A stretch of 7,552 bases of DNA, taken from IMG/VR virus record IMGVR_UViG_2744054627_000013; one strand, given 5' to 3'. The notes under the pieces are model-generated. The model searched no databases. It was not told the DNA's origin and saw nothing but the letters and a program-made list of their open reading frames with translations. Position numbers and translations under genes: made by a program. The DNA is from a virus. Lineage: Duplodnaviria; Heunggongvirae; Uroviricota; Caudoviricetes. Shown here piece after piece: positions 489-6,875 of this stretch (positions within the stretch are counted from its first letter, which is position 1; the number at the start of each line of letters is the position of its first letter).

Positions 489-520
489 ATTGGTGGAGCT
501 GGCGGGAGTTGAACCCGTGT
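489..520 (-). other. ssrA: Attachment-site core: partial copy of the 3' end of the tmRNA gene ssrA (T-arm, acceptor strand and CCA); no ssrA body in the window
   Basis: Reverse complement of 489-520 reads GGACaCGGGTTCAACTCCCGCCAGCTCCACCA, matching the remembered E. coli ssrA 3' terminus (GGACGCGGGTTCAACTCCCGCCAGCTCCACCA) with one mismatch. Sequence to the right (521-860) is AT-rich and not tmRNA-like. Confidence 0.7.
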
Positions 521-732
521 CCATAGTTATGTAATTCATTGAATTTAAATAGCCAAATATTGTTGATTTTACAAGCGGCTCTTTTGCGGAACTTTTTCTG
601 TCCTGTTACTGTCTTACTATTTATTTTAAAATAGTTTCATTTGGAATTAATGGTTTGTGGTTGCAGTTTCGGAGATAGATAGCATTTTTTGCTAAAAAAT
701 ATTTTTATAAAAAAATGTGTGTAAAAATGATG

Positions 733-755: not shown

Positions 756-948
756 GGCTTTGTGATAAACCAGATTGTTTTGGATAAGTTTGTTTTTTGT
801 GATTTGTCAACAATATTATTGACTCTTGTTACTAAAGTGAGTGTTTTCTAAGGTGGTCAGAAGTTGTCCCTTCATGTAATCTTATTAGCCATAAAGAACA
901 AAAAATAATTCAACATCATTACCAACTATTTGTAAGATAAGGTTTTTA

Positions 949-1764
949 ATGTTGCAGCCAGCAAAAAAAGCATCAGTTATTAGCGCGCGGCTAACTAAAT
1001 ACCTCAAAGATGGAGTGAGGATTGATGACTTTAGCTTTAGAAGGATGTTACGTGAGATTGAAGCACTTAGAGATCCTGTCTCTGAGGACTATCTTTTAGC
1101 GTTGGTCTATGGTGCACATGGCCAAGTGAATGAGGCGATAGGCTTCTTTGAGCGTTCCTTGCAGGTATGCCATAATGAGGTTGTTGCAAAGAATTTTCTT
1201 GTTTTCTTGTCAGATTACGGTACGTTGAAGAAAAGCTTTGAAACAAGCATTAAGCTTGCTGAAAGCTTCATATCCCCGTTTATTTATCTTCAAGCTTATG
1301 AAAACTCCCTCTTTATGGGGAAGATGGCGTTGGCGGAGAAGTATTTCCAGTCATACTCTAAATTGTTCGGAGATAAGGAGCCTGAAAAAATGGACAACAA
1401 TTTTGATGAAGTTGTTTCCCAGGTCGAATCCTTTAAGCAACGTGCCGATCTTTCTGGTTTAGAATATGAACTTATTTTCAATAATGTAGCCAATGTCATG
1501 GATTCTCAGAAGGTTCATCTTTCGGGAATGCGTTTTTATAATATTTCGGAAGAGAAAGTGAATGCGATTGTATTCATGACAAAGTCTTCTGATGCTGAAC
1601 AAATCGCTGATATGAATATTGAGCTTGCTTTTTCAATGGCTGAGCACGATTGTTTAGTCGGTAAAGATTTTGCTGTTTGGTTTGAATGTAAAGACACACA
1701 TATTGAGCAGAATGCTATCTCCGAATTAGGTCTGATTACCCGGAGGGTTGCACATGCCGGTTAA
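949..1764 (+). CDS. Hypothetical protein, 271 aa, first gene of the att-int cargo cassette; predicted largely helical, no domain recognised
   Basis: Long ORF with ATG at 949 preceded by AAGG about 6 nt upstream; ends with in-frame tandem stops TAA-TAG (1762-1767); sits in an AT-rich segment with its own upstream region and downstream terminator. Confidence 0.6.
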   Translation: MLQPAKKASVISARLTKYLKDGVRIDDFSFRRMLREIEALRDPVSEDYLLALVYGAHGQVNEAIGFFERSLQVCHNEVVAKNFLVFLSDYGTLKKSFETSIKLAESFISPFIYLQAYENSLFMGKMALAEKYFQSYSKLFGDKEPEKMDNNFDEVVSQVESFKQRADLSGLEYELIFNNVANVMDSQKVHLSGMRFYNISEEKVNAIVFMTKSSDAEQIADMNIELAFSMAEHDCLVGKDFAVWFECKDTHIEQNAISELGLITRRVAHAG

Positions 1765-2136
1765 TAGTCAAGATTTTCTCGGTTTTGCAAAGACTGTCAT
1801 CAACGTAATGACGAAATCGGCTATCGAAATGCTATAGCAAGATCCTACTATGGCGCTTACCATCATGTCTTGCCTTGTATGGTAAACGGGCCGAAAGACA
1901 GTCATCAGGGGCTAATCAATTATTTGCAGGGCGATGCTTCAAGAGGAAGTGAAGTATATGAAGCTAGATATCTAAAAGGGATTAGTTTTATCCTGAGTCA
2001 ACTTAAAGCTCAGAGGATTGTTGCAGACTATCGACTTGATCAATCGGTCACTTCTAAACAGTCTGAAGTTGCGATTCTAACAACTGAGAGGCTCTTTGCT
2101 AAGTGTACGGAAATGCTTAAATCGAGAGCCTCCTAA
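1754..2136 (+). CDS. Hypothetical protein, second gene of the cargo cassette, about 127 aa if one -1 frameshift between about 1768 and 1837 is corrected; contains an R-x6-HH motif (RSYYGAYHH)
   Basis: ATG at 1754 with strong SD GGAGGG 6 nt upstream, overlapping the last codons of the 271-aa gene. That frame stops at 1835-1837, but the frame carrying the annotated 88-aa ORF (1870-2136) is open back to 1768, consistent with a single-base deletion. The fusion is an inference. Confidence 0.45.
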
Positions 2137-2142
2137 TTGATA

Positions 2143-2166
2143 AAGCCACTTAAGTGGCTTTTTTTG
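2143..2166. terminator. Intrinsic terminator ending the cargo operon; the stem also contains the integrase stop codon on the opposite strand
   Basis: Perfect palindrome AAGCCACTTAAGTGGCTT (2143-2160) followed by TTTTTTT on the + strand, directly after the cargo stop codon at 2134-2136. Confidence 0.6.
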
Positions 2167-3318
2167 TGATATTGCTGGTCGTATTACCGTCATATTCCTT
2201 TAAATATGAACCATAATGACGAAATAACATTTCCGGCCCTTTATGCCCCATTTGAGCTGCAAGCCAAAACAGGTTTGCTCCCGGCTGATATGGCGGGTGG
2301 CGAATGTATGCCTAGTTTGATATGGATTTCTGTAACGAATACCTGCTTTTCGCAATGTTGGCACCCATGCTTTTTCCTGATTGCATCAGCACTTGCCCAA
2401 GGCTTATTGGTCTTTGGATCTTCAAAGACAGTAGTATCCTTCATGAATGTAAATGGCTTCTGATTTATCAGCGCAACATTGCCTCTTCTGTCAGTTCAAC
2501 TTTCCGAGTACCTGCTTTTGTCTTTGTCCCTTTGATAACACCGACAACACTTGCGCTCTGGACATGGGCAGTTTTTCCAACAAAGTCGATATCACGCCAT
2601 CGAAGGCACATAATTCAGAACTACGCAGGCCTGTATGTATAGCGAACCGGAACAGATTTTCCCATTGTTTGTTTCCGGCTGCTGCTAGTAATGCATCAAC
2701 TTCTGCTGGTGATAGCGGATCAACTACGTAGCTGCTTTCTGCTTCTGACTTATCACTTTGGTAGCGCGAAGCTGTTACTAACGATACGGGGTTAATTTGA
2801 AGTACCCCATCGGTCACGGCTTCATCAAGTGCTGACCGCAGGAAAGATAACTGGTTGCGAATTGTTTTTAAGGTCGTTTTCTGATTTTGAATCCACGCTT
2901 TCAGGGTTGCTGGTGTTAATTCACTTGCAGGGCAAATGTGAAGTGAGGCTAACGCACTACGGCATTTTTTATAGCCACCAATCGTAGAGGGTGAAAGTTT
3001 TCTTGTTTCGCAGATTTCAAGATATTCGTCCAGGTACATCTTTACCGTTTTGCCTGCAGCAGCATTACCAAAAATTTTCAAACGAGCAGAACGGGGAAAA
3101 TATTCTGCATAAATGAATGTTCCCCTTTCGATCTTATTATGGATTTCGCCGAGTGTACGCTCGGCGTATTTAATGTTCTTTGGTGTTACTTCCAGATTGG
3201 AAAGCGGCTCACGACATCTAACTCCTTTGTAGGTGAAAGTTATATTGATCGTTTCTCCCTGGCGGTGTTTCCTGATTGTTACGCCGCGCGGTAGTTTGAG
3301 CAGTTTTGTCTGGCCCAT
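2150..3318 (-). pseudogene. int: Tyrosine integrase (lambda/P22-type with N-terminal arm-binding domain), about 390 aa when intact; interrupted by about 4 single-base frameshifts in the C-terminal half as sequenced
   Basis: ATG at 3318; N-terminal 275 aa in one frame (MGQTKLLKLPRGVTIRKH...HTGLRSSELCA). Integrase-like sequence continues in shifted frames: WRDIDFVGKTAHVQSASVVGVIKGTKTKAGTRKVELTEEAM, then ...FEDPKTNKPWASADAIRKK, then KAWVPTLRKAGIRYRNPYQTRHTFAT, then LFWLAAQMGHKGPEMLFRHYGSYLKEY... to TAA at 2150-2152. Catalytic R, K, H-x-x-R, H and Y are all present after correction. One shift is at a T5 run (2371-2375). Confidence 0.8.
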
Positions 3319-3485
3319 TTTGCAACCTCACTAAGATCAATCCACCTCTCCTTAACGCCTTCAACCTTTAAAACCTGAACACCTTCACGCCAAACACCGC
3401 GCTGTACACGTTTGTTTATTGCTTCAGGAGTTTCGCCAGTTTCTTTGCAATAAGTTGAGATAGGAACACAATCGAGGTTCAGCAT
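3279..3485 (-). CDS. xis: Excisionase (lambda Xis-like), 68 aa from the SD-supported start
   Basis: Directly upstream of int and overlapping its 5' end by about 40 nt, as in lambda. ATG at 3485 has GGAGAA about 5 nt upstream; product MLNLDCVPISTYCKETGETPEAINKRVQRGVWREGVQVLKVEG... resembles Xis-family winged-helix proteins. Longer N-terminal extensions (starts at 3497 or 3524) lack an SD. Confidence 0.6.
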   Translation of the reverse strand: MLNLDCVPISTYCKETGETPEAINKRVQRGVWREGVQVLKVEGVKERWIDLSEVAKWARQNCSNYRAA

Positions 3486-3526: not shown

Positions 3527-4393
3527 TTAACGAATAGTGTCGTTACTTTGAAGTACAGCAAATGCCATTAATACTTCTAAAGTATATCTTCTATAAAATT
3601 TAACAAAACCAACATAGAAAACATAGACGAAGAAAAAGCTAAGCATTATTGAAAGTAAACTATAAAGATAATCACTATGAGTACATAATCGATAAATAAA
3701 GGTTGGAACTGATACCCAAAATGAAATTATAAAGATTAAACATATGTTTCTGCAAAAACCATATAATGCAACATAGTTTTGAATTTTTGTTTGATGTTGT
3801 TTTGAAAACTCATAAACATAATGATATGCCAATCTGAAGAGATCATCATCAAGTCCGTTTTTATCTTGTAATAATTGGCGATTTGTTATGAACTTTTTCT
3901 CATAACCTTCTTTGATCATTAACCATGTTGTATTAGCTAAATGAAATGGTAGAGATTGAGAATAACATAGTTTTTGTGTTATAAAATCCCATAGTATTAT
4001 TGGACATAATACGCATTTGATTATGCGATTCTTTATTTTTGTTTTTTTATCAGCGCTTCTCTCATCGCATGATGGGCTACAAATGCTTTCTGAGGTATCT
4101 ATCAATTTTTTAAATAGATATTTGGAAGGATATCCTAATTCTTTATTCATGTATTTTTCGATAAAAAATGCTGACGTGATAGAAATAAAATGTCCAGCTA
4201 TATAAGATATAATAACTATTGAAGCGTAGTTCAAAATGCCAAAGATTTGACTTTGACCTCTGAGCAATTCACTTAAGTCAATAACAATATCTAGATCGAA
4301 TGTCAAACCACAGAAATACATTAATAGGATAAAAAAACCACCTGGTATTAAATATCCAAGAAAGTCATAGAATGAGAATGGATTTTGATTCAT
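3527..4393 (-). CDS. Hypothetical integral membrane protein, about 288 aa with about 5 predicted transmembrane helices, in a strongly AT-rich moron
   Basis: Long minus-strand ORF; ATG at 4393 preceded by GGAGA about 6 nt upstream (the TTG at 4417 in the ORF track is a less likely start). Hydrophobic stretches such as FFILLMYFCGLTF, IFGILNYASIVIISYIAGHFISITSAFFI, LIFIISFWVSVPTFIY and LLSIMLSFFFVYVFYVGFV. Composition is much more AT-rich than the flanking genes. Confidence 0.6.
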   Translation of the reverse strand: MNQNPFSFYDFLGYLIPGGFFILLMYFCGLTFDLDIVIDLSELLRGQSQIFGILNYASIVIISYIAGHFISITSAFFIEKYMNKELGYPSKYLFKKLIDTSESICSPSCDERSADKKTKIKNRIIKCVLCPIILWDFITQKLCYSQSLPFHLANTTWLMIKEGYEKKFITNRQLLQDKNGLDDDLFRLAYHYVYEFSKQHQTKIQNYVALYGFCRNICLIFIISFWVSVPTFIYRLCTHSDYLYSLLSIMLSFFFVYVFYVGFVKFYRRYTLEVLMAFAVLQSNDTIR

Positions 4394-4501: not shown

Positions 4502-5024
4502 TTACGACTCAGTTAACTCTTTAAAGCGTTCCATAAACATCCCATAGGTATGGCCTGGCGACAGTGGAATAACTTTGAACATCTCTGTTGCCGGGATACC
4601 TTCCAGTACGGGCCAGAAAGAGCCATCATCAAGCCCGAGATCGCGGCGTTCGGTTGCCAGCATGATGAGATCGGCATATTTCACGGGCGTACTCATAACC
4701 GGGGTAACCCGTATTTCTCACGGATTACGGCGTCTATTTTTCTTCCATCCGTTTATAGTCAGGAAGAAGGCGTTTCAGTGGAGCCGGGATGTCCTGGCAA
4801 TACGCTTCTGTTGCATCATGCATTAACGCTTCAAAAGCAAATTCCTGCGGTACCAGCTGGCTGCAAAGCACCGCATGTTGGGCGACGCTGTAGAAGTGTG
4901 AAAGATGGCCGGCAAAGCGACAGATATTTGAAAGGGAAACCGCGATATCGTTAATATCGATGTTGTCTTTATTTATCCTGTCATAATAAAAATGTTTCCC
5001 GGAAAAAGTTTTAATAAATGACAT
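4502..5024 (-). pseudogene. yfdR: HD-domain phosphohydrolase, YfdR-like (5'-deoxynucleotidase family); split by two single-base homopolymer deletions as sequenced
   Basis: N-terminal part (ORF ending 4734) carries the HD signature region (...RFAGHLSHFYSVAQHAVLCSQLV...HDATEAY...) and ends ...KRMEEK-stop at a T5 run (4737-4741). The C-terminal part (4696-4502, MSTPVKYADLIMLATERRDLGLDDGSFWP...) is in another frame, restored after a G4 run at 4701-4704. ATG at 5024 has GGAG 6 nt upstream; a GTG at 5036 is an alternative start. Gene name is from memory of the CPS-53 yfdPQR module. Confidence 0.65.
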
Positions 5025-5157
5025 TTTGTTCTCCACTGTTTTATATGCGCTGCACCGCGCTGAATTTTGGTTAAAGAAAACCCTCCTCGCCTTCAGGCAT
5101 TATTGAGTCAATTACGTTTCCATAAATGCCCCCGCAGGGGCATTTGCAGTAATGAAA

Positions 5158-6410: not shown

Positions 6411-6875
6411 TTTGCTGCTCCTCATCATATCGACCCTGCAAGGTCGGTTAGTTTCTCCACAAAACAGAGAAGAACACCTGCGGTGACTGCCGCCCGGATG
6501 GATTGGGTTATGAGCCGTCGTCCGGTGATGCTCTTCTCTGTTTTGTAAAAGGACGGTACCAGCCGGAAGCAAGGGTACAAGCTGGTACCGCCAGGACTAC
6601 ACACAGCATAAAGTTGTGGTGCCGGGTGCCTCCCGGTGCCTGGCGAAGGTTGCACACCAGGCGGGTGGGTATCCACAGAAGGTCGACTGTCAGCCTCAAC
6701 CTTAACCCGCGTGCGCTGAGCCGCATTCACCACAACGCTAAGGATTCTCTCTGGTTGAAAATACTTAGCTGTTATGTGCCTGCTTTTAGCCACATCAGGC
6801 GAGGTGGACCTGGTTATTCCCCAACAACAAGGATTCGGTTAATCTGGTTATCCCCAACAACGCAAAAGGAAAGAA
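6411..6875. other. G+C-rich, hairpin-dense non-coding block between divergent genes; candidate structured RNA or complex regulatory region
   Basis: No ORF with a credible start or protein-like composition. 13-bp inverted repeat AAAACAGAGAAGA (6461-6473) / TCTTCTCTGTTTT (6532-6544) encloses 58 nt; 12-bp stem GACGGTACCAGC (6552-6563) / GCTGGTACCGCC (6581-6592) with one mismatch; further CCGGG/CCCGG hairpin at 6622-6636. Confidence 0.35.
6810..6861 (+). promoter_or_regulatory. Two direct repeats CTGGTTAT(T)CCCCAACAAC spaced 34 bp apart, immediately upstream of the + strand small gene; candidate operator or iteron sites
   Basis: Copies at 6810-6828 and 6844-6861, with a related CTGGTT at 6751-6756; the second copy ends 15 bp before the ATG at 6876. 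Confidence 0.35.

What the first reader, a model, noticed from the sequence alone, without database searches (positions are those of the whole stretch)
1754..1880. Second cargo gene appears split by a -1 frameshift; in-frame tandem stops TAA-TAG end the first gene
The SD-supported ATG at 1754 opens a frame that stops at 1835-1837, while the frame of the annotated 88-aa ORF is open back to 1768 and has no RBS for its own ATG (1879) or TTG (1870). One missing base in the 1768-1837 overlap would give a single roughly 127-aa protein. The 271-aa gene ends with two consecutive in-frame stops, so readthrough into the downstream ORF is unlikely and coupled re-initiation at 1754 is the more plausible design.
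Basis: seen in the sequence. Interest (0 to 1): 0.5.

Follow-up and report, generated by a model that had tools for sequence, protein, structure and literature searches.

The report
Sequencing-error frameshift in prophage HEPN gene
The "split" second gene is one ordinary 127-codon prophage gene for a small HEPN-fold protein, and it looks broken only because this draft contig dropped one A from a run of four, one of 16 such dropped bases in the contig.

Summary
Gene 1 (949-1764) ends TAA-TAG. An ATG at 1754, with a good ribosome-binding site, opens a frame that stops at 1835-1837. The downstream frame is open from 1768 to 2136.

All 44 complete E. coli genomes that carry this locus have AAAA where the window has AAA (1789-1791). 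They encode one 127-aa protein whose start overlaps gene 1 by 11 nt. None of 5,426 genomes has the AAA version.

The break is almost certainly a sequencing or assembly artefact:
- The window is the whole of draft contig LSBR01000823.1.
- Against its nearest relative it has 16 one-base deletions and no one-base insertions.
- All but one of the deletions lie in homopolymer runs, and their frequency rises with run length.
- They also break the integrase (four times), yfdR, another phage gene, and an autotransporter gene outside the prophage.

The restored protein has a confident HEPN fold of the AF0298/UPF0332 type and lacks the canonical Rx4-6H motif. It is always preceded by a homologous 245-271-aa partner with TPR-like repeats and sits in variable accessory slots of different prophages. 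The pair is an uncharacterised candidate toxin-antitoxin or defence module. The frameshift itself is of low interest.

The parts
490..522 (.). Copy of the 3' end of ssrA (tmRNA gene). It is the attachment-site repeat that marks the prophage end.
   Evidence: this stretch matches the annotated 'ssrA: transfer-messenger RNA' in other E. coli genomes. In the window no ssrA body follows it. The alignment to prophage relatives starts at 491.
949..1764 (+). Gene 1: a 271-aa partner protein with N-terminal TPR-like repeats and an unassigned alpha/beta C-terminal domain. It is intact in the window and ends TAA (1762-1764), followed by TAG (1765-1767).
1742..1747 (+). Shine-Dalgarno sequence GGAGGG for gene 2, located inside the 3' end of gene 1.
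   Evidence: Sequence. Serratia has AGGAGG at the equivalent place.
1754..1837 (+). True start of gene 2 (HEPN). Codons 1-13 (MPVNSQDFLGFAK) are authentic. After the dropped base the frame reads 14 wrong codons and stops at TAG 1835-1837.
   Evidence: The relatives read ...FAKDCHQRNDEIGYRN... from the same ATG.
1789..1791 (+). A3 run where one A is missing (A4 in all relatives). This is the cause of the apparent frameshift.
   Evidence: alignments; A3 probe: 0 of 5,426 genomes; A4 probe: 44 of 44 carriers.
1792..2136 (+). Codons 14-127 plus the stop of the HEPN gene, in the frame that is open from 1768. The record annotates only 1879-2136 (85 aa).
   Evidence: The restored protein is identical to WP_001145022.1, which is found on at least 1000 contigs.
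2142..2171 (+). Intrinsic-terminator-like hairpin and T run, 6 nt after the gene 2 stop. It ends the two-gene operon.
   Evidence: 8-bp stem AAAGCCAC/GTGGCTTT followed by TTTTGTGATA.
2146..3318 (-). Prophage tyrosine integrase, convergent with the cassette. In the window it is broken into several ORFs by four more one-base homopolymer deletions (after 2279, 2370, 2473 and 2604).
   Evidence: The relatives have an intact 390-aa CDS with Arm-DNA-bind_2 and Phage_integrase domains. Deletions are listed.

Best explanation
The split is not biological. Window 1754-2136 is a single gene for a 127-aa HEPN-fold protein. The draft contig reports one A too few in an A4 run (window 1789-1791), a typical homopolymer under-call. 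That shifts the frame after codon 13 and leaves a 27-codon stub plus an 85/88-codon remnant.

In the real genome, gene 2 is very probably translated from ATG 1754. It uses the GGAGGG inside the end of gene 1 and is coupled to gene 1 through an 11-nt overlap.

The two genes form a mobile accessory cassette of temperate phages. The upstream partner has TPR-like repeats plus an unknown alpha/beta domain. The downstream gene is an AF0298/UPF0332-type HEPN protein.

Inferred function (not shown): the HEPN protein is an RNA-targeting or RNA-binding toxin or effector. The TPR partner holds it in check or activates it on sensing a phage protein. That would make the pair a toxin-antitoxin-like or abortive-infection module.
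For: Shown:
1. All 40 listed E. coli hits span 1302 nt against the 1301-nt query, and the CDS is intact in SFE8, CFT073 and E14.
2. A 48-nt probe carrying A3 hits 0 of 5,426 complete genomes. The same probe with A4 hits 44 of 44 carriers.
3. The truncated 85-aa product is on record on exactly one contig, which is this window (the whole of LSBR01000823.1, assembly GCA_001641855.1). The intact 127-aa sequence is on at least 1000 contigs.
4. Against strain E14 (99.5% identity, same flanks) the window has 16 one-base deletions and 0 one-base insertions. Of these, 15 lie in homopolymer runs.
5. The contraction rate climbs with run length: 0.1% of 2-mers, 0.9% of 3-mers, 5% of 4-mers, 10% of 5-mers, 22% of 6-mers.
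6. Only 13 substitutions are present, and 12 of them cluster in two short patches.
7. The same deletions are private to the window when it is compared with the more distant CFT073.
8. They break the integrase four times, yfdR twice, an ECs1072-family gene once, and an autotransporter gene outside the prophage (window 290).
9. The family is conserved as one ORF. Thirty homologues are 121-131 aa, with invariant D20, E21, R25 and N26 just after the break. Of the 150 best cluster representatives, 145 are 115-149 aa, nearly all matched from residue 1. phrog_5176 matches residues 1-123.
10. HEPN fold: pLDDT 93.6. The top Foldseek hits are AF0298, sacsin HEPN, TT1696, SsR10 and TM0613. The profile hits HEPN chains 9xbd/9xbc at E 9e-6.
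11. The pair is conserved in 9 of 9 contexts examined, at four different accessory slots in phage genomes.
Against: No raw reads or quality values could be inspected, and the sequencing platform of the assembly is unknown to me. A true mutation at this one site therefore cannot be formally excluded.

Replication slippage in real genomes also favours homopolymers. A toxin gene is also the kind of gene that picks up inactivating mutations.

The functional part is inference only:
- The protein lacks the canonical Rx4-6H catalytic motif.
- The partner's C-terminal domain matches nothing known.
- No known defence model matches beyond a weak HEPN_IX hit (E 1e-3).
Confidence: 0.9

Rival explanations
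1. A genuine one-base deletion in this strain has made the HEPN gene a pseudogene. One scenario is selection against a toxic effector within a decaying prophage.
For: The sequence as deposited has the break. Homopolymer slippage is a common natural mutation. The neighbouring integrase is also disrupted, as expected for a decaying prophage.
Against: The window carries 16 one-directional contractions in 7.5 kb but only 13 substitutions, and their frequency scales with run length. One of them lies in a gene outside the prophage (window 290). At that density nearly every gene of the genome would be broken. Four independent hits in one 1.2-kb integrase without any substitution is not how decay looks. 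No other genome or contig shares the allele.
Confidence: 0.07
2. The two frames are joined during expression by programmed -1 ribosomal frameshifting or by transcriptional slippage.
For: A -1 shift anywhere in 1768-1834 would produce a full-length product.
Against: The overlap contains no X_XXY_YYZ slippery heptamer and no run longer than 4. Every relative encodes the protein in a single frame, so there is no conserved two-frame architecture.
Confidence: 0.01
3. Two real, separate small genes: a 27-aa peptide and an 85-88-aa protein.
For: The deposited record calls an 85-aa gene.
Against: Neither downstream start has a ribosome-binding site. The 85-aa product would lack helix 1 and most of helix 2 of the HEPN bundle, including invariant residues. 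The 27-aa stub's last 14 residues are out-of-frame sequence with no counterpart in homologues.
Confidence: 0.01

Closest known systems
Homopolymer-length errors of flow-based or nanopore sequencing that create spurious frameshifts in draft assemblies (general knowledge, not a cited result)
   Same: The indels are one-directional single-base changes. All but one lie in homopolymer runs, their rate rises with run length, they are scattered over unrelated genes, and they are unique to one fragmented draft assembly.
   Different: Nothing differs in kind. The platform and the reads could not be checked here.
AF0298-like / UPF0332 'HEPN-T' proteins (PDB 2hsb; Anantharaman et al. 2013, PMC3710099)
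   Same: Both are small standalone four-helix HEPN domains. 2hsb is the best Foldseek hit and a profile hit. JGI labels homologues UPF0332. The arginine of the motif is kept (R88), but the histidine 4-6 residues later is missing. An invariant His (H51) lies at the start of the helix after helix 2. The paper describes this same pattern for this class, with the His in the insert between helices 2 and 3.
   Different: Identity to 2hsb is only about 16%. The protein is phage-borne and has a dedicated TPR-type partner instead of the nucleotidyltransferase that the 2013 survey links to these HEPN families in toxin-antitoxin pairs. No activity is known for either.
HepT/MntA (HEPN/MNT) type VII toxin-antitoxin systems (PMC7641770)
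   Same: Both are two-gene operons with a small HEPN protein downstream of its partner. Here the two genes also overlap. HepT (7bxo) is among the fold matches.
   Different: The partner here is not a nucleotidyltransferase: it gets no Pfam, NCBIfam or PADLOC hit of that kind and has a TPR fold. The Rx4-6H RNase motif is absent. AMPylation is untested.
HepS, the solo HEPN abortive-infection protein of the Gifsy-1 prophage (PMC13043305)
   Same: Both are small HEPN proteins encoded in an accessory slot of an enterobacterial prophage. HepS shows how such a protein can be an anti-phage anticodon nuclease triggered by a phage structural protein.
   Different: HepS has the canonical R100-H105 motif and no conserved partner gene. 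The present family lacks the motif and always has the partner. No sequence match to HepS structures appeared in the PDB searches.

Membership tests
Homopolymer under-call sequencing artefact | The indel lies in a homopolymer run and is a contraction. | tested here: met
   A4 to A3 at window 1789-1791.
Homopolymer under-call sequencing artefact | There are many indels of the same kind across unrelated genes in the same contig, in one direction, with a rate that rises with run length. | tested here: met
   16 deletions and 0 single-base insertions. Rates are 0.1, 0.9, 5, 10 and 22% for runs of 2, 3, 4, 5 and 6. One lies in a non-prophage autotransporter gene.
Homopolymer under-call sequencing artefact | The allele is absent from all independent assemblies. 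| tested here: met
   0 of 5,426 complete genomes. The truncated product is on 1 contig only, against at least 1000 for the intact one.
Homopolymer under-call sequencing artefact | Raw reads or quality values show ambiguity at the run, and the platform is prone to such errors. | not testable with these tools
No paper mentions the assembly.
HEPN superfamily | A four-helix up-and-down bundle with HEPN topology. | tested here: met
   AlphaFold2 pLDDT 93.6 with helices 5-17, 21-42, 51-64, 71-93 and 101-126. HEPN structures dominate the top Foldseek hits. Profile E 9e-6 to HEPN chains.
HEPN superfamily (catalytic RNase type) | The Rx4-6H motif. | tested here: not met
   The invariant residues are R88, D92 and Y93, and no His lies 4-6 residues after R88. 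This fits the AF0298-like class, which has an alternative conserved His, here H51.
HEPN/MNT (HepT-MntA) type VII toxin-antitoxin | An adjacent minimal nucleotidyltransferase partner. | tested here: not met
   The partner is a TPR-like protein of 245-271 aa with no nucleotidyltransferase match.
Programmed -1 ribosomal frameshift | A slippery heptamer in the overlap and a two-frame architecture conserved in relatives. | tested here: not met
   No heptamer. All relatives read in a single frame.
Known anti-phage defence systems (PADLOC-DB 2.0) | A significant match of either protein to a system model. | tested here: not met
   The HEPN protein gets only HEPN_IX at E 1.3e-3 over 40 residues, and the partner gets nothing. 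The accessions are absent from the DefensePredictor supplements, some of which are truncated as stored.
Toxin-antitoxin / abortive-infection module (functional class) | Toxicity of one component, neutralisation by the other, and a phage-resistance phenotype. | not testable with these tools
   Only context supports it: a conserved overlapping pair sitting in accessory slots beside ApeA, SNIPE, HicB and methyltransferase genes.

The most novel reading that the evidence does not exclude
Once the artefact is set aside, the intact pair may be a previously undescribed phage-borne defence or toxin-antitoxin module. It consists of a TPR-like/alpha-beta partner and an AF0298-type HEPN protein that lacks Rx4-6H. 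In this reading the TPR protein senses a phage component and controls a non-canonical HEPN effector. The pair moves between unrelated temperate phages: lambdoid or P22-like, P2-like, and siphovirus tail-gene slots.
Probability: 0.35. Interest if true: 0.5.

Novelty: not a real feature. Interest (0 to 1): 0.1.

Why it matters
The finding mainly matters as a caution. The contig carries about one homopolymer deletion per 470 bases. Any apparent pseudogene, split gene or frameshift in this assembly should therefore be distrusted, including the broken integrase, yfdR and the autotransporter gene in this window.

There is a secondary point. The restored gene pair is a widespread, uncharacterised prophage accessory cassette built around a non-canonical HEPN protein. 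It would be a reasonable candidate for a toxicity and phage-defence screen.

Tried and rejected
- **Programmed frameshift or transcriptional slippage.** No slippery heptamer and no long run in the overlap. All relatives read in one frame.
- **Two separate small genes.** No homologous locus shows that pattern. The Klebsiella phage record that annotates two small CDS in fact has one open 132-codon ORF.
- **Genuine prophage decay.** Rejected as the main explanation because the same error type hits a non-prophage gene and scales with run length.
- **Tandem stop as a designed feature.** Not conserved.
- **Pfam and NCBIfam for the HEPN protein.** No hit.
- **PADLOC.** Only a weak partial HEPN_IX hit.
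- **Literature.** No hits for the protein accessions or the assembly. The PDB codes 9xbd/9xbc returned only unrelated papers. The DefensePredictor supplements contain neither protein.
- **Exact look-up of the 88-aa TTG-start product.** Found nothing. The record uses the 85-aa ATG start.
- **Rfam at gathering threshold.** Nothing in the window.

Full report
**Observation.** The window was read in full and its ORFs listed.
- Gene 1 occupies 949-1764 (271 aa). It ends TAA (1762-1764), followed in frame by TAG (1765-1767).
- GGAGGG at 1742-1747 precedes an ATG at 1754.
- That frame reads MPVNSQDFLGFAK, then TVINVMTKSAIEML, and stops at TAG 1835-1837.
- The other frame is open from 1768 to the stop at 2134-2136. 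Its first start codons are TTG 1870 and ATG 1879, and neither has a ribosome-binding site.

Every coordinate in the finding is correct.

**Comparison with relatives.**
- A megablast of window 900-2200 against 5,426 complete E. coli genomes found 44 carriers. All are at least 99% identical, and every listed hit spans 1302 nt against the 1301-nt query.
- In SFE8, CFT073 and E14 the second gene is annotated as one 384-nt CDS (WP_001145022.1, 127 aa). It starts at the equivalent of 1754 and overlaps gene 1 by 11 nt.
- Base-level alignment places the difference in the run GCAAAAGAC, which is GCAAAGAC in the window, that is A3 at 1789-1791.
- A 48-nt probe with A3 matches 0 of 5,426 genomes. The A4 probe matches 44 of 44 carriers.

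**Artefact or mutation.**
- The exact truncated 85-aa product is on record on a single contig of the whole gene-position index. That contig is the window itself, the entire 7,552-bp contig LSBR01000823.1 of draft assembly GCA_001641855.1.
- The exact intact 127-aa protein is on at least 1000 contigs.
- Against E14, which shares both flanks at 99.5% identity, the window shows 16 single-base deletions and no single-base insertions. Of these, 15 fall in homopolymer runs.
- The fraction of runs that are contracted rises from 0.1% (length 2) through 0.9%, 5% and 10% to 22% (length 6).
- Only 13 substitutions exist, and 12 of them sit in two short patches.
- The same deletions are private to the window when compared with the more divergent CFT073.
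- They break the integrase four times, yfdR twice and an ECs1072-family gene once. At window 290 they also break the C-terminus of an autotransporter gene that lies outside the prophage, beyond the ssrA-derived attachment repeat at 490-522.

This pattern is one-directional, dependent on run length and indifferent to which gene it hits. That is the signature of homopolymer under-calling, not of evolution. I could not see the reads or the platform, so a real mutation keeps a small residual probability.

**Other readings.**
- Programmed frameshifting is excluded. The overlap has no slippery heptamer and no run longer than four, and no relative has a two-frame layout.
- Two separate small genes are excluded for the same reason. 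In addition, the 85-aa remnant would lack helix 1 and most of helix 2 of the fold.

**What the gene is.**
- Thirty homologues (42-87% identity; Citrobacter, Leclercia, Lelliottia, Klebsiella, Enterobacter, Serratia, Hafnia, Yersinia, Pectobacterium) are single ORFs of 121-131 aa. Their invariant residues lie on both sides of the break: M1, A12, D20, E21, R25, N26, R30, Y32, Y33, Y36, H37, P47, H51, R88, D92 and Y93.
- An exhaustive profile search found 429 cluster representatives at E <= 1e-10. Of the best 150, 145 are 115-149 aa, nearly all matched from residue 1.
- phrog_5176 matches residues 1-123.
- The AlphaFold2 model is confident (pLDDT 93.6) and is a helical bundle.
- Its top Foldseek matches are dominated by HEPN domains: AF0298 2hsb, sacsin, TT1696, SsR10, TM0613 and HepT. 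The family profile hits HEPN chains 9xbd/9xbc (E 9e-6) and 2hsb.
- The canonical Rx4-6H motif is absent. The motif region reads R88-IVA-D92-Y93, and an invariant H51 lies at the start of the helix that follows helix 2. Anantharaman et al. 2013 describe this same pattern for AF0298-like HEPN-T proteins, with the conserved His in the insert between helices 2 and 3, and suggest an alternative active site (PMC3710099).

**The partner and the cassette.**
- Homologous partners of 245-271 aa sit immediately upstream of the HEPN gene in every context examined. They overlap it by 0-20 nt. Three of them were compared with gene 1 and are 25-36% identical.
- The contexts are:
  - between the attachment site and the integrase (E. 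coli, Enterobacter);
  - between antiterminator Q and the lysis genes (Serratia fonticola, Yersinia enterocolitica);
  - among the tail genes, upstream of the tape-measure gene (Serratia marcescens, two metagenomic contigs, Klebsiella phage ST405-OXA48phi1.3);
  - next to replication gene A of a P2-like Vibrio phage.

- Neighbouring genes in these slots include ApeA, a SNIPE/T5orf172 nuclease, a HicB-like antitoxin and DNA methyltransferases.
- A hairpin with a T run at 2142-2171 ends the operon.
- The TAA-TAG tandem stop is specific to the E. coli version. It follows from the Asn-Ser codons of gene 2 and is not a conserved signal.

**Mechanism.**
- Shown: one gene, an HEPN fold, a conserved overlapping partner, and a mobile cassette in phage accessory slots.
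- Inferred: translational coupling from the internal Shine-Dalgarno sequence and the overlap.
- Inferred: the pair acts as a toxin-antitoxin-like or abortive-infection module. The HEPN protein would be the RNA-directed effector, and the TPR protein its regulator or sensor.
- It is not a member of the HEPN/MNT family, because the partner is not a nucleotidyltransferase. It is not HepS, which is solo and has the canonical motif. It matches no PADLOC system.

**Verdict.** The frameshift is an assembly artefact of low interest. The only mildly interesting residue is the uncharacterised TPR-HEPN prophage cassette.

Noticed in passing
window 290, 792, 2279, 2370, 2473, 2604, 4700, 4736, 6514, 6546, 6869, 7073, 7522, 7536: Fourteen further one-base homopolymer contractions relative to strain E14. 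They split the integrase (four hits), yfdR (two), the ECs1072-family gene (7073: 74 aa + 69 aa instead of 144 aa), and the autotransporter C-terminus (290). A fifteenth deletion, after 5098, is not in a run and lies in a variable intergenic patch. Apparent pseudogenes in this contig are unreliable.
   Followed up: yes
window 490-522: Copy of the 3' end of ssrA (tmRNA gene). The prophage sits at the ssrA attachment site, next to a ypjA/ehaD-like autotransporter gene (1-307).
   Followed up: partly
window 6544-6766 (- strand): A GC-rich (54-57%) stretch between yfdP and the ECs1072-family gene gives a full-length but sub-threshold match to the Rfam sRNA STnc100 (39.4 bits against a gathering score of 47, E 4e-7). 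RefSeq annotates a 'frameshifted hypothetical protein' pseudogene here in all three relatives inspected, which may be a misread RNA locus. The E14 copy does not reach the gathering score either.
   Followed up: partly
window 3527-4393 (- strand): A 288-aa predicted membrane protein lies in a strongly AT-rich island (27-31% GC) between the xis-like gene and yfdR. It has no Pfam hit and a weak PADLOC match to Csx27, a type VI-B CRISPR-associated membrane protein (E 1.4e-5). It may be another accessory or defence-type gene.
   Followed up: partly
L012 3001-3399 (Klebsiella phage ST405-OXA48phi1.3, MK416008.1): The HEPN homologue is annotated as two small CDS (3053-3184 and 3181-3396), although a single 132-codon ORF from an ATG at 3001 is open and aligns full-length. 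This looks like an annotation error in the public record.
   Followed up: yes
window 5037-5098 and 4544-4574: These two short patches hold most of the genuine variation against the relatives: multi-base indels in the yfdR-yfdQ intergenic region, and 7 clustered substitutions near the yfdR 3' end. They look like small recombination tracts.
   Followed up: no
window 1748: Some records, including CFT073 c3205 (129 aa), start the HEPN gene two codons earlier at a TTG (MHMPV...). The ATG at 1754 has the better spacing to GGAGGG and matches the conserved MPV/MSV N-terminus of the homologues.
   Followed up: partly
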